Part shown: positions 3 through 26,507 of the stretch, in pieces | How the letters are laid out: each line of letters starts with the position of its first letter | Position numbering within the stretch: position 1 is the first letter of the stretch | NCBI GenBank assembly: GCA_044356455.1 | Contig: JBIKWF010000058.1 | Location: 1 to 26,507, forward strand | Direction: 5' to 3' | DNA length: 26,507 nt | Origin: Bdellovibrionota bacterium | Lineage (GTDB): Bacteria; Bdellovibrionota_C; UBA2361; JBGSMV01 | Made by a program: the position numbers and the translations under genes | The notes under the pieces: model-generated | Told to the model about the DNA's origin: nothing | Database searches by the model: none | The model's input: only the letters and a program-made list of their open reading frames with translations

Positions 3-251
3 ACGGAGGGGCGTCTCCCTATTATCGGCATCGGTGGAATCTCCTCGGTGGGGCAGGCCTTGCGATACATAGGAGCGGGCGCGTCGCTGATTCAGCTGTA
101 TACCGGACTTGTATATGAGGGCCCGCTCCTGGTGAAGCGTTTGAATGTGGGGATTGGCAGAGCGGTTTCGCGCGCAGGCTGCCGAAGTATTGCAGAGCTT
201 GTGGGGCGCGGCGCTCACGAGATCTCCCAGTTGGAAAGTGTGGCGGTATGA
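3..251 (+). CDS. pyrD: Quinone-dependent dihydroorotate dehydrogenase, C-terminal part (truncated by window start)
   Basis: Frame open from base 3: [15 protein letters not shown]...[17 protein letters not shown], the class 2 DHODH C-terminal signature; stop overlaps tgt start (ATGA). Confidence 0.9.
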
Positions 252-2326
252 CCGGGAGGTTAGATCTACGAATTCAAGCGCAAGACGCGTGGTCTCAGGC
301 GCGTGCCACAAGTTTCCGCACCCTGCATGGTGAAATTGAAACACCCATTTTTATGCCAGTGGCAACGCAGGCAGCCCTGCGCGGCGTGGATCTCGCTATC
401 GCTGAGAATTTTGATTATCGCGTCTTGCTCGCGAATACCTACCATCTACTTCTTCGCCCGGGACCTGAGCTCTTTCGAAAATGGGGCGGCATTCATCCGT
501 TCATGAAGTGGCCGCACGCGGTCCTCACTGACTCTGGCGGCTTTCAGATTTTTTCATTGTCAAAGCAGCTCAAGCTCTCAGAAGAGGGGGCGCGCTTTCG
601 AAGTTATGTGGATGGCGACGAGATCCTTCTCACGCCAGAGCGTAGCATTGAAACCCAGCGCGCCATCGGAAGTGACATTATGATGGTGCTCGATCAGTGC
701 ATCGATTCAACCTCTGACCTTGGTGCTTCTCGCGCCGCCTTGCAGCTCACCACACGTTGGGCGAAGCGCTCCCTTGCCGCACGTGGAGATTCCCCTCAGT
801 CTCTCTTCGGAATTATTCAGGGAGCCTGCTTTAAGGAGCTGCGCCGAGAAAGCGCTGCTCAGATTACGGAGATGCCGTTCGATGGGTTTGCCATTGGCGG
901 ACTTGCGGTCGGCGAAACGAGAGCCGAACGCGAAGACATGACTGAATACACGGCGCCTTTACTCCCGGCAGATCGTCCGCGCTACTTGATGGGAGTGGGT
1001 ACCCCCATAGATCTTTTAGAAGCGGTGAAGAGGGGAGTGGACATGTTCGATTGTATCCTGCCAACCTCACTTGCTCATCAAGGGGTATGCTTTACCACCC
1101 GAGGAAAAATTGATTTGCGCCGTGGTGTCTATCGAAACAACGAAGATTCGCTCGATCCTGCCTGTTCCTGCTCAACCTGCACCAGGTTTAGTAAGGCATA
1201 TTTGCATCATTTAGTGCGGGCTGGGGAATTTGTCGCAGACCAGCTTCTTAGTATTCATAACCTCTTTTTCTATCGCGAGCTGATGCGTGGCATGCGCCAA
1301 TCTATCCTGCAGGGTAGTTTTAGAGAGTTCTATACTCGTCAAAAGCCGTTTCTCGAGGCTCGAGATGTAGAGAACCCGAGTGTTCCTCCCAAGCGCAAGA
1401 AGGAAAGGGACGAGCATGCGCTTGGCGACTACCAGGTTGTGCAGCATAGCACCGGTGGTTTTGGTAGTGTTAAGCAAGTAAGCTCGGGCGAAACCATGCA
1501 TTCGGTGAGTGATCCGGTCGTTGAGGCTGAGGCGCTCTACGTAGATCAGTCTCGGCTTCGGGAAAGAGTTCTTGCATCTGGAGGCCCGCTGGTGGTCTGG
1601 GATGTGGGGCTTGGCGCAGCTACCAACGCTATGGTGTGCCTTAAGGCGCTTGAGGACATGAGGAGCGATGCCCCGCGCCGCCCTGTTCAGATTATTAGCT
1701 TTGAACGAGACCTTGATTCGCTCAGACTTGCCTTGCGGCATCCAAGACTCTTTCGCCATTTGCGACATCCCGCGCCGCATGCGCTTCTTGAATCGGGAGT
1801 CTGGCGCTCCAAGGAAGAGAGGGGCGTAGGAGAGGGAGCGTCGATAGAGTGGCGTCTCTTAAAGGGCGATTTTTCAAAACTTTTCGAATCGGCTCCGCTG
1901 CCCGAGGTTATTTTGTACGATCCTTTTTCGGCGAAAGTTGATACTGAGCTCTGGGAGTACTCAATTTTTGAACGCTTGCTTCGCTACTGCGAGCAGCGAG
2001 GAGATTTTGGCACTTCGCTCTACACGTATACGAACTCTACTTCAGTGCGAGCAGCACTACTTGCGGCAGGGTGGTTTGTCGGCCGCGGGCGAGCGACAGG
2101 TCCGAAGTCTGAAACTACGACTGCCGGTACACTGGCGACCTGTTCCTCTCCTTTTGCTTTGAACCTTCTCGGGAAAGAATGGCTCGAGCGCTGGGAGCGA
2201 AGTGATGCGCGTCAGCCTGCAGGTACAAGGGGGGAAGAGTTCCTCCTGCGCATCCCTGGCCATCCGCAGTTCGGCGGTTCGGCAGGAATACATGCAGAGA
2301 CAATTCAGGGGGCTGGAGTTCCATAA
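248..2326 (+). CDS. tgt: tRNA-guanine(34) transglycosylase fused to a C-terminal MnmC/MnmD-like SAM methyltransferase
   Basis: [41 protein letters not shown] and CxCxxC..H zinc site in aa 1-375; then [35 protein letters not shown], resembling the MnmC methyltransferase domain. Confidence 0.93.
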
Positions 2327-2566: not shown

Positions 2567-4057
2567 ATGGCGGTAGCGGTGAGGGTTCCTTTTGTTACGT
2601 CTGGTGGTCTTCTCTCTGGCGTAGTTCCGGGCGGGGCGGTTACGAAAAGCGCCTCAGGCCCGCTTGATTTACTTTCGCCTGGAATAGAGAGCGCACTTCG
2701 TGCCCCAACGGCTCTTACTCCACCGCTCGACAAAACGCTCGTAACATCTTTCTTGCGAGCTCTTGCGCGGTTGGTAGATCCAGAAAAAAACCCGATTGCG
2801 GAAGTAAGGGGAGAGCCGAGATCCGCTGCCTGGGAACTTCGCTTGTTCCCTCACCCCCAGCGGCCCTACCACGTGCCTCTTCGGGGCGACGTAGCGCTGC
2901 TTGCGGCGCGTACTCCCGATCTTACGAAAGAGTTCGTCATAGGAGTAAAGCGTTTCTGCCGCGACCAGGACATTACGCGCTTATATTTGTATGACACCAG
3001 GCTGAGTGACCGGGTAGTTGCACTTTGCAAGGTGCTTGAGCCGCATCTCAAAACACTAGTGATTCGCGATCATCACGGGGTAGGGGAAGGCGAGCAGGCA
3101 GGCGTGGCTGAACTTCGTGAGAAGTTTGGCTCAAGGGCAGACATTCGGGTTGTTTCAAAAAAAGATTCGCCGACTTGTTTTGATTTGCTTTCAGAAAATG
3201 AAGGAGAGCTCATTCGCGGTGAAGGGAAAGCGCTTGTAATTACCGCGCCTCTCGATCTCGATTCCCTGAATTGTATCGCGCGGGGCTTTGGGCTCTCGTA
3301 CCAAGGTCAGAATAATGATGTGCTCGCTATCGAAGCAAAAGATCGCGTGGCTCAGCGGGCAGGAGTTAGTCCCCTCGGAGATTTAATTCTAGACGCGCTC
3401 CGCGTGGGCCCCATGGTGCTTAAGGGGAGAAGTAGTGAAACCTTTGCCTCTCTTTTCCAGATAGCCGCGCTGCAAGCAATTCACCACGCAAGTTCATCTC
3501 ACGGTGCTGAGAAATGTTCTGATACCCCCGCCGGCGAAACCCTTTCTATGTTGGCCACTTTGGCCAAATCCGCCAAGGAATTGACTCTGGTTTCTCTGCT
3601 AAAAAGGAGCGTGGTCAGAGACCAGGTAGTATCTACCGGCGCTGCCCTCAACGTGTGCGTCGTAGATCTTGGTGATGAAGGCCTCGTTGAATCGGCGGCA
3701 CATGAAAACATGATACCGCAACGCTTTGAGCGAATCGGAGTGCGCTTGAACTTGGCTGCGGCAGAGGTTCGCCGCGAGCTGAGAAGGGAGCCAGAGCGAC
3801 TGAGGATGAGCACCCTAGAGGACGTCTGTTCTCATCTCATTCGACAAAAGGAGCTGCCGCGTAATATTTTTGTTTTTGTTCGCTATCCGGGAGAAGAAGG
3901 ACGGCAATCAGCGTTAGTGCGTTTTGCGGCGTTCGGCGAATATCGGCACGCGCCATTCGCCCAGCAACTCCCGTGGGAAATGTCACGTGTTGGGCTAGGG
4001 GTCATTGAAGACGAGAGCAAGTTCTTTGAATGGTTGAAGGCGCCAGCGGTTCTATAG
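2567..4057 (+). CDS. Hypothetical protein with DHH-like motifs
   Basis: 496-aa ORF filling the gap; LYLYDT, VIRDHH, SPTC and DLDS motifs; start codon uncertain. Confidence 0.65.
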   Translation: MAVAVRVPFVTSGGLLSGVVPGGAVTKSASGPLDLLSPGIESALRAPTALTPPLDKTLVTSFLRALARLVDPEKNPIAEVRGEPRSAAWELRLFPHPQRPYHVPLRGDVALLAARTPDLTKEFVIGVKRFCRDQDITRLYLYDTRLSDRVVALCKVLEPHLKTLVIRDHHGVGEGEQAGVAELREKFGSRADIRVVSKKDSPTCFDLLSENEGELIRGEGKALVITAPLDLDSLNCIARGFGLSYQGQNNDVLAIEAKDRVAQRAGVSPLGDLILDALRVGPMVLKGRSSETFASLFQIAALQAIHHASSSHGAEKCSDTPAGETLSMLATLAKSAKELTLVSLLKRSVVRDQVVSTGAALNVCVVDLGDEGLVESAAHENMIPQRFERIGVRLNLAAAEVRRELRREPERLRMSTLEDVCSHLIRQKELPRNIFVFVRYPGEEGRQSALVRFAAFGEYRHAPFAQQLPWEMSRVGLGVIEDESKFFEWLKAPAVL

Positions 4058-5274: not shown

Positions 5275-5282
5275 GTTTCTAG

Positions 5283-5410
5283 GGGATCTCTGAAAATTAC
5301 AGCTATTTCATTTTTCTCTCTGTGAGCTCTGTGTCCTCTGTGGTTTTTCAACAATTTAAATCAACCACAGAGGACACTGAGTTCACAGAGCGGACTTTTT
5401 CGGAGATTCC
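5283..5410. mobile_element. MITE-like palindromic element, family B copy 1
   Basis: Ends GGGATCTCTGAAAA / TTTTCGGAGATTCC, flanks CTAG and CTGG, internal 28-bp inverted repeat 5318-5345 / 5363-5390 (26/28 complementary). Confidence 0.7.
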
Positions 5411-6216: not shown

Positions 6217-6363
6217 TATACGCGAGAAAAACCCACCTCTGTGTACCCCTGTGCCCTCTGTGGTGAAATTCCCATGAAGATTTCACCACAGAGGACGCGA
6301 AGGTACACAGAGTTTTTTCAGGATTTCGGGTGTTTGAGGATTCTGAGGTCTTTCAGAGGTTCC
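6217..6363. mobile_element. MITE-like palindromic element, family B copy 2 (left end decayed)
   Basis: CTAA on both sides (6213-6216, 6364-6367); right end TTTCAGAGGTTCC; internal hairpin 6237-6269 / 6280-6312, similar to the copy at 8846. Confidence 0.7.
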
Positions 6364-7962: not shown

Positions 7963-8580
7963 ATGCTGAAGCGAACGGATGCGGAACTAGTAGCGGTAAT
8001 CCAAAGAGGGGACAATGAAGCCTTTGAGGAGCTGATGCAGCGCTACGTCAACAAGGCGTATGGGCTCGCGGCTCGGCTTACCAAAAACCGGGAAGATGCG
8101 GAGGAGGTGCTGCAGGATGTGTTCATCACCGTCCACCGAAAAATTTCGGCGTTTGAAGGAAAATCATCCTTCTCTAGCTGGCTTTACCGAATCACCGTAA
8201 ACGCAGCCTTGATGAAGTTAAGGAAGCGCCGGAATGACCGTCATGTCCATATAGAGGACGTAGTTCCAGAATATAGTAACAGCACTCTTCTTAAGACCTG
8301 TGCTCTGTCCGAGAGTGATGTACTTACCGACCGTCAAACCCTGCTCAGTGCTCTTGAGATGGCTATTCGAAAACTTCCGGATGAATATCGGCCGGTGTTT
8401 GTTCTTCGTGATATTGATGGGCTCACCAGTCGGCAGGTCGGAAAGATACTCCAGCTAAGCATTCCGGCGGTAAAATCGCGGCTCCATAGGTCCCGCATCA
8501 TGTTAAGACGTAAACTCTTGCCCCTCTACCGAGAAGTTTCAGAGCAGGCGAGGGCTCATATTGACAGAGAAGCGGCCTAG
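7963..8580 (+). CDS. ECF-type RNA polymerase sigma factor
   Basis: DAEEVLQDVF, FEGKSSFSSWLYRITVN (region 2); LPDEYRPVFVLRD..AVKSRLHRSR (region 4). Confidence 0.95.
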   Translation: MLKRTDAELVAVIQRGDNEAFEELMQRYVNKAYGLAARLTKNREDAEEVLQDVFITVHRKISAFEGKSSFSSWLYRITVNAALMKLRKRRNDRHVHIEDVVPEYSNSTLLKTCALSESDVLTDRQTLLSALEMAIRKLPDEYRPVFVLRDIDGLTSRQVGKILQLSIPAVKSRLHRSRIMLRRKLLPLYREVSEQARAHIDREAA

Positions 8581-8841
8581 GAGTGTGTCCCGTAGAAACA
8601 TAAATCTTCATTCTGGACACAATCCGTAGCCGCCTTTTCACGCTGCAGTTCGGTCGCGCCGAAATATGCGAAATGAAAAGGCGAGCTGAGCCCCTATTCG
8701 AGGAGATATCCGCGGAAGGGGCTACTTGCAGCACTCTAGGGAGTTCGGAGCCTTGAAGGGCGTATGAGCAATAGGGGCTAGGTGGGCTGTCCCGCTGCCA
8801 CCACAACATGTAGTGGTAGAAATTTTCTACGGGACAGACTC
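8581..8841. mobile_element. 261-bp MITE, family A copy 1
   Basis: 18-bp TIR GAGTGTGTCCCGTAGAAA / TTTCTACGGGACAGACTC; flanks CTAG/CTAA; inverted near-identical copy at 25057-25317. Confidence 0.88.
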
Positions 8842-8845
8842 CTAA

Positions 8846-8975
8846 GGAGCCTCTGAAAAACTCACCTCTATGTACCTCTGAGTCCTCTGAGCTGAAATTT
8901 TCATGAAGAAATTTACCACAGAGGACACGGAGGTACACAGAGGTGTATTAAGAATGAAGGTTTTTCAGAGGTTCG
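8846..8975. mobile_element. MITE-like palindromic element, family B copy 3
   Basis: TIR GGAGCCTCTGAAAAAC / GTTTTTCAGAGGTTCG, CTAA duplication (8842-8845, 8976-8979), internal ACCACAGAGGACACGGAGGTACACAGAG hairpin arm. Confidence 0.8.
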
Positions 8976-9152
8976 CTAACTTCTCAGGCGGTGCGCCAGG
9001 CGCGGTGCCTGAGATTCCATCTTAAGGAAGGCCAGACTTCGGCGGTCGTCTTGTGTGCGCTTGGCGCCTGTGTAATAGCGAGAAGCCTTGTGATTCCCTC
9101 CCATCTCGTACCACACTTGTAGCTCTACGATTATATTCTCCCGCGGCGCTCT

Positions 9153-13296: not shown

Positions 13297-14142
13297 ATGA
13301 GACCCCGCGCAAAAGACGAATTGTCTTCCCTCTCGGTTACGCCGTCCAAGGAGCGTGGCCAGAATTTTATTATTAATCCTTTCGTTGTTGAAAAAATTGT
13401 TCAGTTTGGGGCTCCCCAGCCACATGAAAAGCTTGTGGAGATTGGGCCAGGGCTGGGCGCGCTCACGGCTGCCCTGGTAAATGCGGCTCCCCTTACTATT
13501 GTTGAGATTGAGCCAAGATTCTGCGCTGAGCTTGCGGCGAGATTTCCTTCTCTCACGATCGTTCAGTCAGACGTGAGACGAGTAGATTTTTCTACGCTTG
13601 GCTCGGATCTCACCGTATTTGGAAATCTGCCCTATTCATTCTCTACCGATATTATTTTCCACCTTTTAAAGAATCGTAAGTCCATTCGCCGCGCAGTCAT
13701 TATGCTTCAGCGTGAGTTCGCTGAGCGTGTGGCTGCCGATCCAGGGAGTAAGACCTATGGAAGCCTCTCTGTTGCGGTTCAGCTTTATGCCGATGCGTTT
13801 CTTGGTCCTATTATTGCTGGAGACTCTTTCCATCCCCCGACCAAAGTTGAGTCTCGACTTTTGCAGCTTACGATGCGGGCGTCTCCGCTCGTCGACGTCC
13901 AGGACCTTGAGTTTTTCGAGAAGGTCGTGCGTGCGGCCTTTATGCGGCGGCGAAAAAAGATAGCAAATAGTCTATCGGGCAGTGGCATTTTTACGGAAGA
14001 GGACGTTGAGGCAGCGCTCAAGGAAACTCAGCTCGATAGTTCGCGGCGTGCTGAAAGCTTCTCAATGCATGAATTTGCGCTTCTCGCGGAAGCCCTCTAT
14101 CGACGTCGAAAGGTAGAGGGAAAAAACGACCAGGCCGAGTAG
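13297..14142 (+). CDS. rsmA: 16S rRNA adenine dimethyltransferase RsmA/KsgA
   Basis: GQNF, EIGPGLGALT, GNLPY, MLQREFAER, YGSLSV, FHPPTKVES, RRK. Confidence 0.96.
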   Translation: MRPRAKDELSSLSVTPSKERGQNFIINPFVVEKIVQFGAPQPHEKLVEIGPGLGALTAALVNAAPLTIVEIEPRFCAELAARFPSLTIVQSDVRRVDFSTLGSDLTVFGNLPYSFSTDIIFHLLKNRKSIRRAVIMLQREFAERVAADPGSKTYGSLSVAVQLYADAFLGPIIAGDSFHPPTKVESRLLQLTMRASPLVDVQDLEFFEKVVRAAFMRRRKKIANSLSGSGIFTEEDVEAALKETQLDSSRRAESFSMHEFALLAEALYRRRKVEGKNDQAE

Positions 14143-14157
14143 GCAAACGAGGAGCGT

Positions 14158-16533
14158 TTAGTTGTTCGGGTCAAACCAGGAGTAGCGAGAAAGGGCTGCA
14201 AGTATTGCAGGCCGGGAGACCGCGCAGCCAAGGATTTGAGCAAGTATCTTTGATCTCTTCACCATACTTGCCTTGGGGCAATGCTGCCGCAGTGCTTTTT
14301 CTTTATTGGAGGCAAGCGTGGTGGGATCGATCAATCCTTCTTCGAGGTAGAAGCTCATTTCTTTGCCGCCTTCTCTGCTTAAGGGATGTCCTTCGGGAAT
14401 CTCAGCTGGAAAAACCTTCTCTTTGATTGCATAGAGAACAAGGGTGCGCACGCCTGAGAGCCCAAGCAGAGTAAGAGCTTGCTTCGTGCGAAGATCTCGC
14501 CCTTCAAAACCATCGAGGGTCTCGCTGATTTCACGTAGAAATGAGTGCTTGTTCTCAAGAAGACGTTCCTCATTTTTAAATACGGTGGGCTCAAAATAAA
14601 GAGAGCGATTCTTTTTCCCACGAAGTGTGTACGGGTGATTCGCGGGGCGTTTCGCAATCGGGAACTCCAGTTCGACTATGCGTGCTGCGATGCTCAGCCG
14701 ATTAGGCTTGCAGTTAAGCATCGCGCAGAGTGAGGCGTCGCGGTCTGGTAAGCAGTCGAGGTTTGGGTAGTGCTCCCCAATATGTCGTTTCATGTTGAGC
14801 AACTTTACGCGAGGGCCAACGAGGTCTTCGTCAAAATACGCGGAAAGGGTGTCACGAGGTAACCTATGGTCTCGAGGGATTCGTGGCAGAAGAATTCGTT
14901 GGCGCAGAAGTGCCCGCCTAACTTCTTCTACGGTTCCCTTTTGTGGGTCGATTCCCAAAAGTGCACAATCTACTGCGGAGATACGGTCCTTTCGAACGTG
15001 GTCCAGGGTTGGGAATTTTTCATAGAGAGCTTTACGGGCATTTATCTTGGCCCAAGCTGGGCCAACAGCCTGAGCATTAAAATAGAGCGACCTATACTTG
15101 AGGCCCGACATCGGGTGCTTGGCAGGACGCTCAGGACTCATCAAGTCAGCGTCAATGAAGGCCTTTGCGAGCGTGGCCTGTGAGACTTCGTCTCTAGGTA
15201 GGTCCACTAGTCTAAGCAGCTCAGGAGTGCGCGAAAGGTGGTCGAGAGAAGGGTGTTTCTTGAGAAGTAAGGCTCTGACGATCTCCTTTCCTTGCGGGGG
15301 AAAGTGCTGAGGTAAAAAAGGAATCTGAGTAAATCCCAGGGATTCTCGCAAATATGCAATCTCTTTTTGGGTAGATCTGCGTATATTAGAAAAGAAGTCT
15401 AGGTTATCTGCATAGAGTGAAAGGTTTGACCACCCGGGGGAGGCGTGGGGTGCAATAGCAAGCTCACGACCAAGAAATTCGAACCCAAGCGGCTTAACTT
15501 TCCCAGCCCACAGGGGCACCGGAATTCTCTTCGGCTCTGCGCTAAAATGGTTTTGAGCGAAAGCTTCAAGTTCACTCATGCGTGTTGAAATCAAGGATTT
15601 TGCACAGCCGTCGATTTGGCCAATTTGATCGTAACGAAGACCTAGCTGACGAAGGGCAAGGTAGCGCGTTGCGCGAGGACCAAGCTGTGCATGAAGTTTC
15701 TCAAGCTCCTCATTAAATGCAGCCTTGACCGAAACTTCCTCGCGAGGTGCGCTAGCCCGGTCCTCTGCATGCGAGACCGTGCGGCCATTAATTCTATTCA
15801 ATCTTAGCGCTCTCCTATATTCTTTAGGGGAGAGTTTCGCTTGTTGCTGTACCTCTTCACTTTCTAGAGCCGGGGCAATGCCTGTTTGCTTAAAGATGCG
15901 ATCTTGTGCACGTAGTAGTTCGGCTTCTTCAGGAGTCCGGTACTGATGCTGAGCGGTCTCTTTTCGAAGAATGCTCACCGTCTTATTCAGAAGCACCCTA
16001 AGAATGAACGGGCGGTAACGCCCAAGTTCTGGATTAAAATCACCTATTGCGCGGTGTAGCTCAGAGAGAAGTTCTTCTCGTAGCGGGTACGTCCTTGCTA
16101 AAAAAGAAAACTTGTATGCTATTTTTCCGAGAAGGGGGGTCGACTGAGCGACTATCCCGGACAGAACCAAGGGGGCATTGGCGCCCTCGCGCCAGGTAGC
16201 GAGAGAGAGGACTTTGTTGCTCGCAAGTTCTGTAAGAAGCCTTCCCATTCGCACTTCACGTCGCTCGGAGGGCGGCGATCTCTCCATTGACAATACTATC
16301 TCTTCTAGCATCTGAGGAGAGAGGCCTATGGCGGGTCCTGCCTGCCGAGATTTCTTGAGACAGATGGCGTCAAGTAGAGCCTCAACCTCCTCACGTGAGA
16401 GCCGAGCAGCCTGAGCGGAGACCGGCTTTAGCTCAATGTCGACCGCGAACGGACGAGGGACAGGCGCCTCTTTGGGAGCCTCCGTAGGTGTCTGTGAGGA
16501 TGTTTCGTTTTTCGTGCTCGAGATGGGGGGCAT
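14158..16533 (-). CDS. Divergent sigma-70-like protein with C-terminal ~81-aa tandem repeats
   Basis: aa ~125-325 resemble sigma regions 2, 3 and 4; periodic PxxH, SLYF and PxLD motifs in aa ~415-791. Confidence 0.7.
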   Translation of the reverse strand: MPPISSTKNETSSQTPTEAPKEAPVPRPFAVDIELKPVSAQAARLSREEVEALLDAICLKKSRQAGPAIGLSPQMLEEIVLSMERSPPSERREVRMGRLLTELASNKVLSLATWREGANAPLVLSGIVAQSTPLLGKIAYKFSFLARTYPLREELLSELHRAIGDFNPELGRYRPFILRVLLNKTVSILRKETAQHQYRTPEEAELLRAQDRIFKQTGIAPALESEEVQQQAKLSPKEYRRALRLNRINGRTVSHAEDRASAPREEVSVKAAFNEELEKLHAQLGPRATRYLALRQLGLRYDQIGQIDGCAKSLISTRMSELEAFAQNHFSAEPKRIPVPLWAGKVKPLGFEFLGRELAIAPHASPGWSNLSLYADNLDFFSNIRRSTQKEIAYLRESLGFTQIPFLPQHFPPQGKEIVRALLLKKHPSLDHLSRTPELLRLVDLPRDEVSQATLAKAFIDADLMSPERPAKHPMSGLKYRSLYFNAQAVGPAWAKINARKALYEKFPTLDHVRKDRISAVDCALLGIDPQKGTVEEVRRALLRQRILLPRIPRDHRLPRDTLSAYFDEDLVGPRVKLLNMKRHIGEHYPNLDCLPDRDASLCAMLNCKPNRLSIAARIVELEFPIAKRPANHPYTLRGKKNRSLYFEPTVFKNEERLLENKHSFLREISETLDGFEGRDLRTKQALTLLGLSGVRTLVLYAIKEKVFPAEIPEGHPLSREGGKEMSFYLEEGLIDPTTLASNKEKALRQHCPKASMVKRSKILAQILGCAVSRPAILAALSRYSWFDPNN

Positions 16534-16609: not shown

Positions 16610-16870
16610 TTACGAGGGCACTCGCAACCCTTGCTCTCTTTCACCTCGTTCAGCTGCTGCTCCCGCAGAGCCTCTTTTGTTGAAAAAATCATCCGGAATT
16701 GCTCCGACCAGTTTCTCGACAGAATCACGTTTCACCCTCCAGTCAGAGCCGAGCTTAAATCCCTGTATCGTGCCGTCCCGAATTAGGTCGTAAACCTTGG
16801 GGCGGTGAATGCGAAGCAGAAGCGCCACCTCTTTTACTGTTAAAAGCATCGGATTCTTTGGATTGCTCAT
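16610..16870 (-). CDS. Excisionase-like (HTH_17/BldC-type) DNA-binding protein
   Basis: LLTVKEVALLLRIHRPKVYDLIRDGTIQGFKLGSDWRV; AGGAG RBS upstream on the minus strand. Confidence 0.9.
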   Translation of the reverse strand: MSNPKNPMLLTVKEVALLLRIHRPKVYDLIRDGTIQGFKLGSDWRVKRDSVEKLVGAIPDDFFNKRGSAGAAAERGEREQGLRVPS

Positions 16871-22238: not shown

Positions 22239-23482
22239 TGGCCAAGCGCTATCTTTTTGTGGTCCCGCGTTACGGCGAGAAGGTAGGCGGCGGTGCCGAG
22301 ACGTTAGTACGAGAGGTTGCGGAGCGCTTAGCTTTGCGCGGAGATACTATCGAGGTCTTTACTACCTGCGCGCTAGATAACAGGACTTGGGACAATGTAC
22401 TTCCCGAAGGCAGGTCCACGGAAGGGGGAGTGGTCGTCAGCAGGTTCCCTGTGGACGCGCGTAGCCTTGATATTTGGGTGCCCCTGCAAATTAGAATTAG
22501 TGAAGGCATGCTGCTTACTCCCGATGAGCAGCTCCAGTGGCTCGAGCATGGTGTTAACTCCTCTGCGCTCTATGCCGAACTCCACCGTAGATCGAGTGAA
22601 TTTGCGGCTTGTTTTTTTGCGCCCTATCTTTTTGGCACCACGTTTTTTGGATCTCTCGTAGACCCAGGGCGCTCCGTGCTGATTCCTTGCTTGCACGATG
22701 AGCACTATGCCTACGTGGACGTTATTCGGAGCATGTTTCGCCTTACGCGAGGCTGCTTGTTTAATGCGGCGCCCGAGATGGATCTTGCGCGCGGCCTCTA
22801 CGGGCACCTAACGGGCGGCGAAGTGGGGATGGGCTTTGACCCATTCCCTGCGAAGTACGTTTCTGAGCTTACGCCCTATTTTGAGGACGCCTCTCCTTAT
22901 GTGCTTTACCTTGGCCGAAAGGAGACTGGGAAAAATGCCCACGTGCTCGTCGATAACTTCATGGCCTTTAAGGATGGTCTTGCAGAAGGGGCGCCAGGAA
23001 AGAACCTCAAGCTAGTGGTGGTTGGCGGCGGCTCGTTTGCCGATCTGTATAGGCCTCAGGCTCTAAACCGTTCCGATATTGTTGATCTCGCTCACGTATC
23101 GGAGCGTGATAAGCATCGCCTGGTAAAGCATGCGCTCGTGCTCTGTCAGCCCTCCACCAATGAGTCCTTCTCGATTGTTCTTATGGAGGCCTGGCTCCTT
23201 GGAGCTCCTGTGCTCGTGCATGCGGGATGCCCGGTGACTAGGGCGCATGCGATTGAAGCGGGAGGTGGGCTTTATTTTGGCGATGCTGAAGAGTTCTCAG
23301 CGGTGCTCGGGCAACTTCTTGCTGACGAGGTGAAAAGCTCTAGCAGTTTAAGAGCCAGACTTTCGGCAGGGGGCGCGGCCTACGTGCGCTCGAAGTATGA
23401 CTGGGCTGAAGTGCTTGCCCGGTTTGACAGGGTAGTGAAAGAGATTTTCACCGAAGCGCCCGAATCAATTGCGGCACGCTAA
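22238..23482 (+). CDS. Glycosyltransferase family 4
   Basis: VVPRYG..GGAE, TTCA, PCLHDE, YLGRKETGKN, ESFSIVLMEAW (EX7E); GTG overlaps the upstream TAG. Confidence 0.92.
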   Translation: MAKRYLFVVPRYGEKVGGGAETLVREVAERLALRGDTIEVFTTCALDNRTWDNVLPEGRSTEGGVVVSRFPVDARSLDIWVPLQIRISEGMLLTPDEQLQWLEHGVNSSALYAELHRRSSEFAACFFAPYLFGTTFFGSLVDPGRSVLIPCLHDEHYAYVDVIRSMFRLTRGCLFNAAPEMDLARGLYGHLTGGEVGMGFDPFPAKYVSELTPYFEDASPYVLYLGRKETGKNAHVLVDNFMAFKDGLAEGAPGKNLKLVVVGGGSFADLYRPQALNRSDIVDLAHVSERDKHRLVKHALVLCQPSTNESFSIVLMEAWLLGAPVLVHAGCPVTRAHAIEAGGGLYFGDAEEFSAVLGQLLADEVKSSSSLRARLSAGGAAYVRSKYDWAEVLARFDRVVKEIFTEAPESIAAR

Positions 23483-24838
23483 GAAATTGTTAACCTCCTC
23501 CATGATCATCTGCGCTATGGCTGGACCTTCCCTGTGAAGCGCAAGGGGTGCCTTTTCAAACCCCTCGCTCCTCAGCCAAGAAATGGAAAGCATCTCAATT
23601 TCCATGATCAGCCCATCGCGAAGAGTTCTTACGTCCCCAGAAGAGGGCAATGAGTTTTCAATCACACGTCGAATCCGAGTCATGCTCTCGGATATTCGCA
23701 AGATATCGCGGGGGGCTAGCACAGGTGTCACACCTGCATATGTCACGTTTCGACAGTGGCTTACCTTAAGGGCGACTTCTGCTAGTTCGAGTTGGTGACT
23801 CGGTAGTTGCCCTTGAGAACTTTGTCCTTGCCTAAGATAGCGGCGCAAAGCACCGAGCTTAGCAAAAAGAGTCTGCGCTGCGTTTGTGTCCTGAGAGTGA
23901 GTTACTACGGCACCGAGCTCGCGGTACAATTCTTCAAACCGCTGAAAAGCTGCCTCTATCGGAGAGGAAGAAGCACTCAAGGCACTCTTGGCAGCAGTAT
24001 CCTGACCTGGCTCGGCGTCTGCGCTCCCCGATAAAGAAGCGATTTCGAGGCTGCCTCCACATTCGGGGGCAGCGCCAAGAGGTAACGAGGAGGCGACATG
24101 GGGCACTGCAAGTGAATCAGGCAGCACCTCTAAAGGGGCTAAGCCTGCCTTTGATGAAGCCTGAGAAAACTTAGGGGCTTCTCTCGGTGTGCGCATAGCG
24201 AGGTCAGGTGGGCCGGAGAAGTGCGGCATTCTAAGCTCCTGAGCTCTTGTGCTTAAATTTTTCGAGGATGCCTTATTAGGAGAGGATGGCCCTCGCGCTT
24301 CAATGCCCGAAACTCTCTCGTGCGCGCGGACGGGGCGCGGTGGATCTGACGGCGGATCTTTTTCAGGATGCACAATTTTTCTGGGGAGGGAGGTGCGGGG
24401 TACTTTGCGAGGGGGAGGTCTAAGTGACTCAAACAGGTCTTGGAAAGTCTCTCTTTCGGGCTGGCAATCCTGGGGGGCAAGAGGAGGGGGCTCATACCCA
24501 AAAAGGGTAGACGGAGTTTTTTCCTGGCATCCAATGGCATATTCCCTGGCTGCCACACAAAATCTTGCAAGACCGTCCCCCGCTTTGGGGCTTAGGCGAA
24601 TGGTCCCGGATGCAAGATGAGCAAAGCTAAAATCATCAAGCAGGTCCCGCGAGGAGAGACTAAGGATATCAGCAGAGGAAATCCCGTCCTCCCTTAACAG
24701 CTGAAAAGCCTGGACCCCGAGGGTTCGTAATTCATTTGGTAGTTTCTGCTTAAGGTTGTCCAGCTCGGGATCCGTCCACGGGCGCTGGCCTCTTTGCCTT
24801 GGGCCTGCCGATTTTGATAGCTCTGCACCGTATGTCAT
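23465..24838 (-). CDS. Hypothetical protein: SAM/alpha-CTD-like N-terminus, Pro/Ser-rich linker, helical C-terminus
   Basis: 457-aa ORF with GAGGAG RBS on the minus strand; converges on the GT gene with an 18-bp overlap. Confidence 0.7.
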   Translation of the reverse strand: MTYGAELSKSAGPRQRGQRPWTDPELDNLKQKLPNELRTLGVQAFQLLREDGISSADILSLSSRDLLDDFSFAHLASGTIRLSPKAGDGLARFCVAAREYAIGCQEKTPSTLFGYEPPPLAPQDCQPERETFQDLFESLRPPPRKVPRTSLPRKIVHPEKDPPSDPPRPVRAHERVSGIEARGPSSPNKASSKNLSTRAQELRMPHFSGPPDLAMRTPREAPKFSQASSKAGLAPLEVLPDSLAVPHVASSLPLGAAPECGGSLEIASLSGSADAEPGQDTAAKSALSASSSPIEAAFQRFEELYRELGAVVTHSQDTNAAQTLFAKLGALRRYLRQGQSSQGQLPSHQLELAEVALKVSHCRNVTYAGVTPVLAPRDILRISESMTRIRRVIENSLPSSGDVRTLRDGLIMEIEMLSISWLRSEGFEKAPLALHREGPAIAQMIMEEVNNFLACRN

Positions 24839-24948: not shown

Positions 24949-25052
24949 GGAGTATCTGAAGAATCTGCTACGCGTAATCTGCGTCCTTCGCGTTATTCAA
25001 TGCTTCTCAATAAACGCTGACTACGCGCAGCGCTGGATTTCTGAGAAGCGCC
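24949..25052. mobile_element. Degenerate family B-like element, copy 5
   Basis: TTAG-GGAGTATCTGAAGAATC ... GATTTCTGAGAAGCGCC-CTAG; core CCTTCGCGTTATTCAATGCTTCTCAATAAACG resembles the copy 4 core CCTCCGCGTTATTTAATAGTTTTCAAATAACG. Confidence 0.45.
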
Positions 25053-25056
25053 CTAG

Positions 25057-26507
<1,451 letters not shown>

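What the first reader, a model, noticed from the sequence alone, without database searches (positions are those of the whole stretch)
14161..15291. About 4.5 tandem ~81-aa repeats of unrecognised type fused to the sigma-like domain
Seen: periodic anchors PAKH/PRDH/PANH/PEGH (aa 470, 553, 630, 713), SLYF/SAYF/SLYF/SFYL (482, 564, 644, 727), a conserved Asn, and PSLD/PTLD/PNLD/ETLD (428, 508, 590, 671), each followed by an 'ALLG..' helix pair. The DNA-level repeat is no longer evident, so the duplication is old. The region is basic with no TM segment. I do not recognise the repeat family. Inference: a modular nucleic-acid-reading or ligand-sensing array that regulates or retargets the sigma domain in cis. 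This is the best candidate for an undescribed system in the window.
Basis: partly seen in the sequence, partly recalled or inferred. Interest (0 to 1): 0.75.

Follow-up and report, generated by a model that had tools for sequence, protein, structure and literature searches.

The report
Sigma factor with swappable repeat arm
This gene joins a worn-down copy of a bacterial transcription-start factor to an arm of undescribed ~80-residue repeats that in other microbes carries a predicted DNA-cutting domain instead, so the arm is likely a modular DNA reader that would aim the attached enzyme at chosen sites.

Summary
The repeats are real: five three-helix bundles joined by four hairpin linkers, period 77-83 aa. 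They form a rare family with no curated-family or PDB-sequence match: 50 representatives, 12 of 91 genomes of this order, a few archaeal-labelled genomes. The array travels with an N-terminal cap domain. Of 64 proteins, 20 carry an N-terminal FliA-like sigma, 21 a C-terminal PD-(D/E)xK nuclease with intact motifs, none both. That nuclease family also accepts an unrelated 112-aa array in this genome. Three patches vary widely across the family but stay conserved between position-matched repeats of orthologues (6 of 9 non-overlapping pairs); two are basic and poor in acids. Most fusions lack the region-4.2 arginine. Best reading (0.5): the array reads DNA modularly and positions sigma/RNA polymerase, a protein-coded analogue of dCas12f-sigmaE. 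DNA binding and sigma activity are untested, and this protein's sigma is among the most degenerate. The scan already reported the same reading for this gene's sigma half (e1-8447214) and the 112-aa nuclease on other DNA (e1-9886215); neither is independent support.

The parts
14158..16533 (-). Whole gene, 791 aa (P0001): extension + sigma2-4 + cap + repeat array
16171..16533 (-). N-terminal extension, aa 1-121, Pro/Ser/Thr-rich start; true start codon uncertain
   Evidence: library gene call starts at aa 96
15559..16170 (-). Degenerate FliA-like sigma regions 2, 3 and 4 (aa ~122-325)
   Evidence: profile of 11 homologue N-termini, built without this protein, hits aa 157-322 at 48.7 bits, E 4e-17; homologues hit Pfam sigma70 r2/r4 and TIGR02479
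15304..15501 (-). Cap domain (aa ~345-410) that precedes the array in sigma-type and nuclease-type members
   Evidence: phmmer matches from aa 350-373 to N-termini of nuclease-type proteins; helical in the model; the cap profile hits other sigma fusions but not this protein
15151..15297 (-). Three-helix bundle 1 (aa 413-461)
   Evidence: coordinates
15061..15150 (-). Linker 1 with P-x-x-H...S-x-Y hairpin (variable tip MSGLKYR)
14902..15060 (-). Bundle 2 (aa 492-544)
14815..14901 (-). Linker 2
14671..14814 (-). Bundle 3 (aa 574-621)
14572..14670 (-). Linker 3 (basic tip TLRGKKNR)
   Evidence: sequence
14422..14571 (-). Bundle 4 (aa 655-704)
14326..14421 (-). Linker 4
14191..14325 (-). Bundle 5 (aa 737-781), terminal
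15271..15400 (-). 130-bp stretch with a 93%-identical orphan copy on contig C198
   Evidence: copy seen in all 4 runs laid
13297..14142 (+). Flanking conserved gene (RsmA/KsgA-like by recalled motifs), convergent with the gene
16610..16870 (-). Flanking conserved HTH_17 gene, upstream on the same strand

Best explanation
The repeats are an undescribed family of three-helix modules that likely bind DNA in tandem, and the array would hold the fused FliA-derived sigma domain, and through it RNA polymerase, at a long target of its own just upstream of a promoter. SHOWN: the repeat family; the cap+array cassette; its alternative fusion to an N-terminal sigma or a C-terminal PD-(D/E)xK nuclease-like domain; three patches (hairpin tip, start of helix 2, turn and start of helix 3) that differ between units but are kept by position in orthologues; loss of the region-4.2 arginine in most fusions. 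PREDICTED: the fold and a fairly rigid array (pTM 0.83). INFERRED: the patches contact bases, so each unit reads a few base pairs and unit order spells the site. Because the array follows sigma region 4, it would lie upstream of -35, take over -35 recognition, and leave region 2 to bind core enzyme and open the -10 region. In archaeal and some bacterial relatives the same array would aim a nuclease, like a natural type IIS/TALEN architecture.
For: (1) Effector swap: 20 sigma, 21 nuclease, 0 both, 23 neither among 64 proteins. The catalytic-type E, D and E-x-K are invariant in 19 of 19 aligned nuclease members; a weak PHROG endonuclease hit covers that stretch (E 0.005). Both effectors act on DNA. 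(2) The same nuclease family carries a different 112-aa array in this genome and in relatives, so the slot takes interchangeable arrays. (3) Specificity-position signature: among columns of equally high family entropy, excess identity between position-matched orthologous repeats is 0.47, 0.48 and 0.43 in the three patches versus 0.19 elsewhere (116 repeat pairs). In non-overlapping protein pairs the patches are better kept in 6 of 9, including this protein versus L043 (0.28 vs 0.08). (4) Charge: hairpin columns carry 1.46 K/R vs 0.27 D/E per repeat, helix-3 start 1.77 vs 0.55, while columns 22-33 are net acidic. (5) Region-4.2 Arg is present in 2 of 19 fusions but in 3 of 4 stand-alone FliA/RpoH-like sigmas of this genome (its role in reading -35 is recalled). 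Replacement of -35 recognition by a separate DNA reader has a precedent in dCas12f-sigmaE (10.1101/2025.06.10.658880, passages). (6) I saw no recurring neighbour around the array genes in 13 regions from 12 relatives, judged by eye from ORF starts, not by a family scan. (7) Between two strain-level variants the array is better conserved than sigma2-3 (22 changes in ~460 aa vs 25 within residues 63-239).
Against: No binding data. This protein's sigma hits no Pfam or NCBIfam sigma model and lacks the region-2.4 Asp kept by 12 of 16 fusions; several relatives retain only region 4 or no detectable sigma. The patch statistic is weaker than it looks: patches were drawn after viewing, 18 of 29 protein pairs come from one clade, and 3 of 9 non-overlapping pairs show no excess. 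Variable ligand-facing patches also occur in protein-binding repeats (established knowledge). Nuclease-type arrays average only +0.6 net charge per repeat and several are negative. Coordinates were not returned, so I could not check that the patches share one face. Some members are broken.
Confidence: 0.5

Rival explanations
1. The array reads DNA, but this protein's sigma half no longer starts transcription. The protein acts as a site-specific repressor or polymerase decoy, or is a decaying fusion.
For: No sigma-family hit for this protein; region-2.4 Asp and region-4.2 Arg both absent; 23 of 64 members have neither effector detected (some are fragments); split or truncated members exist; patchy distribution and a lineage-specific insertion site.
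Against: The 791-aa frame is intact and recurs nearly unchanged in other samples. Regions 2, 3 and 4 are all present in order. Sigma fusions occur in at least four families of the order, and three homologues pass the TIGR02937 cut-off (P0005, P0006, P0010; L051 too).
Confidence: 0.2
2. The array is a protein- or ligand-sensing extension that holds sigma inactive until a signal binds, like ECF41 (SnoaL), ECF42 (TPR) or ECF57 (WD40) extensions. In nuclease fusions it would sense an invader protein and release the nuclease.
For: Sigma factors without an anti-sigma often carry regulatory C-terminal extensions, some made of repeats (PMC8999054, passages). Helical repeat arrays with variable surfaces commonly bind proteins (established knowledge). 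Some arrays are near neutral.
Against: Acid-poor basic patches in both architectures; loss of the -35 Arg is not predicted by this model; no PADLOC match above noise in 11 proteins; the described extensions sit on ECF (group 4) sigmas, these on a region-3-containing scaffold.
Confidence: 0.15
3. The array reads single-stranded RNA (PPR/PUF-like) and couples sigma, or the nuclease, to a transcript.
For: Basic, modular, position-specific surface fits RNA as well as DNA.
Against: Both partner domains are normally DNA-acting (established knowledge); units are ~80 aa, far larger than one-base RNA readers (recalled).
Confidence: 0.08
4. The proteins are exported into a host or prey cell, where sigma-array fusions switch on host genes (TALE-like) and nuclease-array fusions cut host DNA.
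For: Low-complexity N-terminal extension; three FlhA/SctV-type export-gate homologues in this genome; carriers include DPANN-labelled archaea, generally host-dependent (recalled).
Against: None of the three reaches the hrcV cut-off; archaeal members start directly at the cap with no extension; no secretion genes among the window's ORFs (by eye).
Confidence: 0.07

Closest known systems
FliA/WhiG (sigma-28), group 3 sigma-70 factors
   Same: Regions 2-3-4 in order; TIGR02479 is the best or second-best NCBIfam hit of all 7 homologous fusions scanned; the family profile's top hits in this genome are FliA-like.
   Different: All score far below the FliA cut-off (40-63 vs 189.6 bits); R-x-x-D-x-x-R replaces the FliA region-2.4 pattern; region-4.2 Arg mostly lost; 450-aa cap+array appended; no flagellar context in the window.
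dCas12f-sigmaE RNA-guided transcription (10.1101/2025.06.10.658880; PMC13472631)
   Same: A separate targeting module would replace -35 recognition and position sigma-RNAP (passages; the second paper seen as search listing only).
   Different: Here the targeting module is a fused protein array with no guide RNA or Cas-like gene seen, the sigma is group 3, and function is untested.
TALE, C2H2 zinc-finger arrays and their FokI fusions (recalled; PMC3017587 seen as listing)
   Same: Tandem modules with variable positions in front of a nuclease or joined to a transcription effector.
   Different: No sequence relation; ~80-aa units only 13-41% identical between divergent proteins' units; three variable patches rather than a di-residue; no conserved Cys/His zinc set.
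[quoted passage not shown]
   Same: Sigma without a cognate anti-sigma plus a long C-terminal domain, repeats in ECF42/57.
   Different: Extensions are SnoaL, TPR or WD40 and regulate activity; none matched here, and none is described in the passages read as shared with a nuclease.

Membership tests
sigma-70 family | Regions 2 and 4 detectable by profile | tested here: met
   Transitively: homologue profile hits aa 157-322, E 4e-17; four homologues pass TIGR02937. No direct curated hit for this protein.
sigma-70 family | Binds core RNA polymerase and starts transcription | not testable with these tools
   Needs biochemistry.
FliA/WhiG | TIGR02479 score above 189.6 | tested here: not met
   This protein no hit; homologues 40-63 bits.
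FliA/WhiG | Region 3 present between regions 2 and 4 | tested here: met
   Aligned region 3.
FliA/WhiG | Region-2.4 Asp and region-4.2 Arg (positions recalled) | tested here: not met
   LLNKTVSILR and KSLIST in this protein.
ECF sigma with regulatory extension (ECF41/42/57) | Sigma2-sigma4 only, with SnoaL, TPR or WD40 extension | tested here: not met
   Region 3 present; no such Pfam domain in 50+ proteins.
Winged helix / helix-turn-helix domains | Structural match of the unit to HTH or wHTH folds | tested here: inconclusive
   Three-helix topology and sub-threshold MarR-type Pfam rows in two homologues; structure searches gave nothing decisive.
TALE-like proteins | 33-35-aa near-identical repeats with a variable di-residue (recalled) | tested here: not met
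   Period 77-83, low identity between units; no TAL Pfam hit.
PD-(D/E)xK nucleases (relatives' effector only) | E ... D ... (D/E)-x-K catalytic motifs | tested here: met
   E550, D584, E593, K595 invariant in 19 of 19; weak PHROG endonuclease hit.
PD-(D/E)xK nucleases (relatives' effector only) | Restriction-like fold and DNA cleavage | not tested
   Both folding jobs went to the repeat; cleavage needs experiment.
Known anti-phage systems (PADLOC) | Match to a system model | tested here: not met
   One noise-level row (E 0.03) among 11 proteins.

The most novel reading that the evidence does not exclude
A new class of naturally programmable DNA-reading repeat, independent of TALEs and zinc fingers, shared by uncultured bacteria and archaea. 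It is used as a plug-in that turns a sigma factor into a single-chain, protein-guided transcription starter and a nuclease into a natural TALEN, with a three-patch code that can be read and recombined.
Probability: 0.35. Interest if true: 0.92.

Novelty: categorically new. Interest (0 to 1): 0.74.

Why it matters
Sigma factors are thought to choose promoters with their own regions 2 and 4; the exception I found in print uses a guide RNA. A sigma aimed by a fused, shuffled protein array would be a further route and a compact promoter-independent activator. A new modular DNA-binding fold with natural nuclease and sigma versions is directly testable by SELEX on a few expressed arrays, and the aligned ~240 natural units give a starting set for deriving a code.

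Tried and rejected
Family libraries: no repeat match in Pfam, NCBIfam, PHROGs (short local rows only), PADLOC or PDB sequences at E<=10. ESM Atlas: no usable feature hit for two queries and only TM<=0.35 structure rows. Structure searches: Foldseek found nothing at E<=0.001 for the 448-aa model in PDB and BFVD (41, 42) or the 109-aa unit in PDB; VIA-align against 48,161 chains gave 25 rows at Z 2.0-2.5 and none at Z>=5, a few being HTH proteins tied with unrelated helical chains. This shows neither a new fold nor a different one; my early winged-helix idea is left open. Complex prediction of sigma aa 95-250 with beta-prime 1-327: no answer, 0.29 against a mark of 0.32. Expression: no RNA holder listed. 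Whole-unit gain/loss: P0012 and P0052 differ by exactly two units, but P0012 is held only by one source while the long form is in several, so it may be an assembly artefact and was not used. Viral contigs: 0 of 63 pattern hits confirmed, nuclease motifs only. Word-index searches added 5 proteins and none. Sigma-70 promoter scan: 0 sites; no target DNA was identified. The 81-aa repeat on contig C154 is not detectably related (hhalign probability 1.6%). No sigma fusion of the 112-aa array in three long proteins checked. Literature: searches returned nothing, 73 and 135 only unrelated papers, 109 and 113 the analogues cited; subscription journals are not covered and no supplements were opened.

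Full report
Observation. The stretch is the C-terminal half of a 791-aa ORF at 14158-16533 (-). No DNA-level repeat remains. AlphaFold2 with a 50-row alignment gives a confident model (pLDDT 94.6, pTM 0.83): a helical cap, then five three-helix bundles separated by four ~30-aa linkers, most with a small hairpin. A single unit folds the same way (pLDDT 96.3).

Family. phmmer against 1.84 billion representatives gave 50 hits at E<=0.001, one being this protein. An iterated 76-column profile finds 2-11 units per protein with near-invariant Pro6, Tyr20, Asn34, Leu46-Asp47 and Leu59. No curated family describes it. In genomes it is rare and patchy: 13 of 91 in this order, one of which is a nuclease-only match, none in the other 33 of the phylum, and 1 of 401 and 4 of 401 in the orders of two Woesearchaeota-labelled records (incomplete genomes, so 'not found', not absent). 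Record titles of nuclease-type carriers are Woesearchaeota (2), Patescibacteria, Methanosarcinales and Altiarchaeota; one sigma-type member is labelled Deltaproteobacteria bacterium. This genome has a second, diverged array protein on C176 and a 130-bp orphan copy on C198.

Architectures. Of 64 proteins (three near-duplicates dropped first), 20 have an N-terminal sigma, 21 a C-terminal nuclease-like domain, none both, 23 neither by these tests; the last group includes fragments, region-4-only forms and one more distant nuclease. The cap domain is shared by both types, and one relative has sigma followed by four cap-plus-bundle copies, so cap+array behaves as a cassette. The nuclease keeps E, D and E-x-K in 19 of 19 aligned members. 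The same nuclease family occurs in this genome behind an unrelated 112-aa array, and units of that array precede it in five relatives examined.

Sigma half. A profile of 11 homologue N-termini, excluding this protein, matches aa 157-322 at E 4e-17 and ranks FliA-like proteins highest in the genome. Homologues hit TIGR02479 and TIGR02937. Regions 2, 3 and 4 are present. The region-4.2 arginine is kept in 2 of 19 fusions versus 3 of 4 stand-alone FliA/RpoH-like sigmas; the region-2.4 Asp is kept in 12 of 16 fusions but not here. This protein is therefore a degenerate member, which is the main weakness of the activator reading.

Where variation falls. In 241 near-full units, variability between recently duplicated units peaks at columns 12-17 (hairpin tip), 50-54 (start of helix 2) and 62-67 (turn and start of helix 3). 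Between position-matched units of orthologous proteins these same columns are well kept: excess identity 0.43-0.48 versus 0.19 for 12 other equally variable columns (116 pairs). Because 18 of 29 protein pairs belong to one clade, I repeated this with nine non-overlapping pairs: patches higher in 6 (three of them from that clade), equal in 1, lower in 2. In one orthologue group at 32-41% identity, surface motifs such as RGS, PW, G-x-KGR and KQ are invariant by position. The hairpin and helix-3 patches are basic and poor in acids, other surfaces are acidic. This is the pattern expected of specificity-determining contacts to a polyanion, but it does not prove the ligand is DNA.

Context. The gene sits in a convergent gap between two conserved genes; that gap is empty in one relative and holds unrelated genes in two others (in the fourth the two genes lie on different contigs). 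Neighbours of the array genes in 13 regions from 12 relatives differ, judged by eye. Three of five nuclease-type loci share an adjacent ~350-aa gene with no Pfam match. Broken members exist, pointing to turnover.

Mechanism. Most likely (0.5) the array binds a long DNA site, the fused sigma recruits core polymerase, and region 2 opens the promoter at a fixed distance; placement after region 4 would put the array upstream of -35, clear of the enzyme (inference). Rivals: DNA reader with an inactive sigma (0.2), sensing extension (0.15), RNA reader (0.08), exported effector (0.07). Taken together, sequence-specific DNA reading by the array is about 0.7.

Comparison. It would work like dCas12f-sigmaE, where -35 recognition is supplanted by a targeting module (10.1101/2025.06.10.658880, passages read), and like TALE or zinc-finger fusions (recalled), but belongs to neither. 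Sigma factors with repeat extensions are known as activity sensors (PMC8999054, passages read), with other domains. Eight literature searches found no description of this repeat; unsearched journals and supplements could hold one. The scan's earlier report on this gene's sigma half reached the same reading; it concerns the same DNA and adds no evidence. Inconclusive structure, complex and expression tests are listed under Tried and rejected.

Verdict. Observation confirmed; undescribed repeat family with effector swapping shown at sequence level; DNA targeting and sigma retargeting inferred. Interest 0.74.

Noticed in passing
G000:C97:53586-57212 (-), L106; also L107-L111, L147-L149: Same nuclease family behind a different, highly regular ~112-aa beta-rich array; related arrays in G015 and G070 end in a more degenerate domain.
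   Followed up: partly
G000:C176:24487-27057 (+), L001: Second array protein in this genome (856 aa) with a possible region-4-like helix pair near aa 90-140 (by eye) but no detected sigma2.
   Followed up: partly
G000:C198:105-234, L002: 93%-identical 130-bp copy of the cap/bundle-1 junction, directly followed by a 295-bp repeat also on C100; present in all four runs laid.
   Followed up: partly
L051:6636-8924 (+): Sigma followed by four ~123-aa copies of cap plus bundle, without hairpin linkers: a second way to build an array from the same parts.
   Followed up: partly
L010:3114-4172 (-), L011:4865-5911 (+), L012:4816-5850 (+): Conserved ~350-aa gene of unknown function adjacent to the repeat-nuclease in 3 of 5 loci; no Pfam match, and none in NCBIfam, PHROGs or PADLOC for the one member scanned.
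   Followed up: partly
G000:C154:111713-114505 (-): Another 81-aa repeat protein, not detectably related to this family; the genome holds several more long regular arrays (periods 63-72 aa).
   Followed up: partly
G000 contigs C41, C7, C110, C187, C117, C184: Many FliA-like sigma paralogues and three FlhA/SctV-type export-gate homologues, none above the hrcV cut-off.
   Followed up: partly
window 248-2326 (+): tRNA-guanine transglycosylase-like domain fused to a C-terminal methyltransferase-like domain (recognised from recalled motifs); a similar gene lies next to the array gene in G001 (L045).
   Followed up: no
window 8573-8978, 25038-25325, 6226-6312, 5276-5410: Dispersed non-coding repeats with palindromic parts, copied on other contigs.
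   Followed up: no
window 23465-24838 (-) and 2567-4057 (+): Orphan ORFs of 457 and 496 aa with no significant Pfam match.
   Followed up: no
G000:C95:7222-10374 (-): More distant relative of the same nuclease domain in a 1051-aa frame without repeats.
   Followed up: partly
L105:4908-6466 (+); L102:7084-8637 (+): Members split between sigma and array, or ending just after the array.
   Followed up: no
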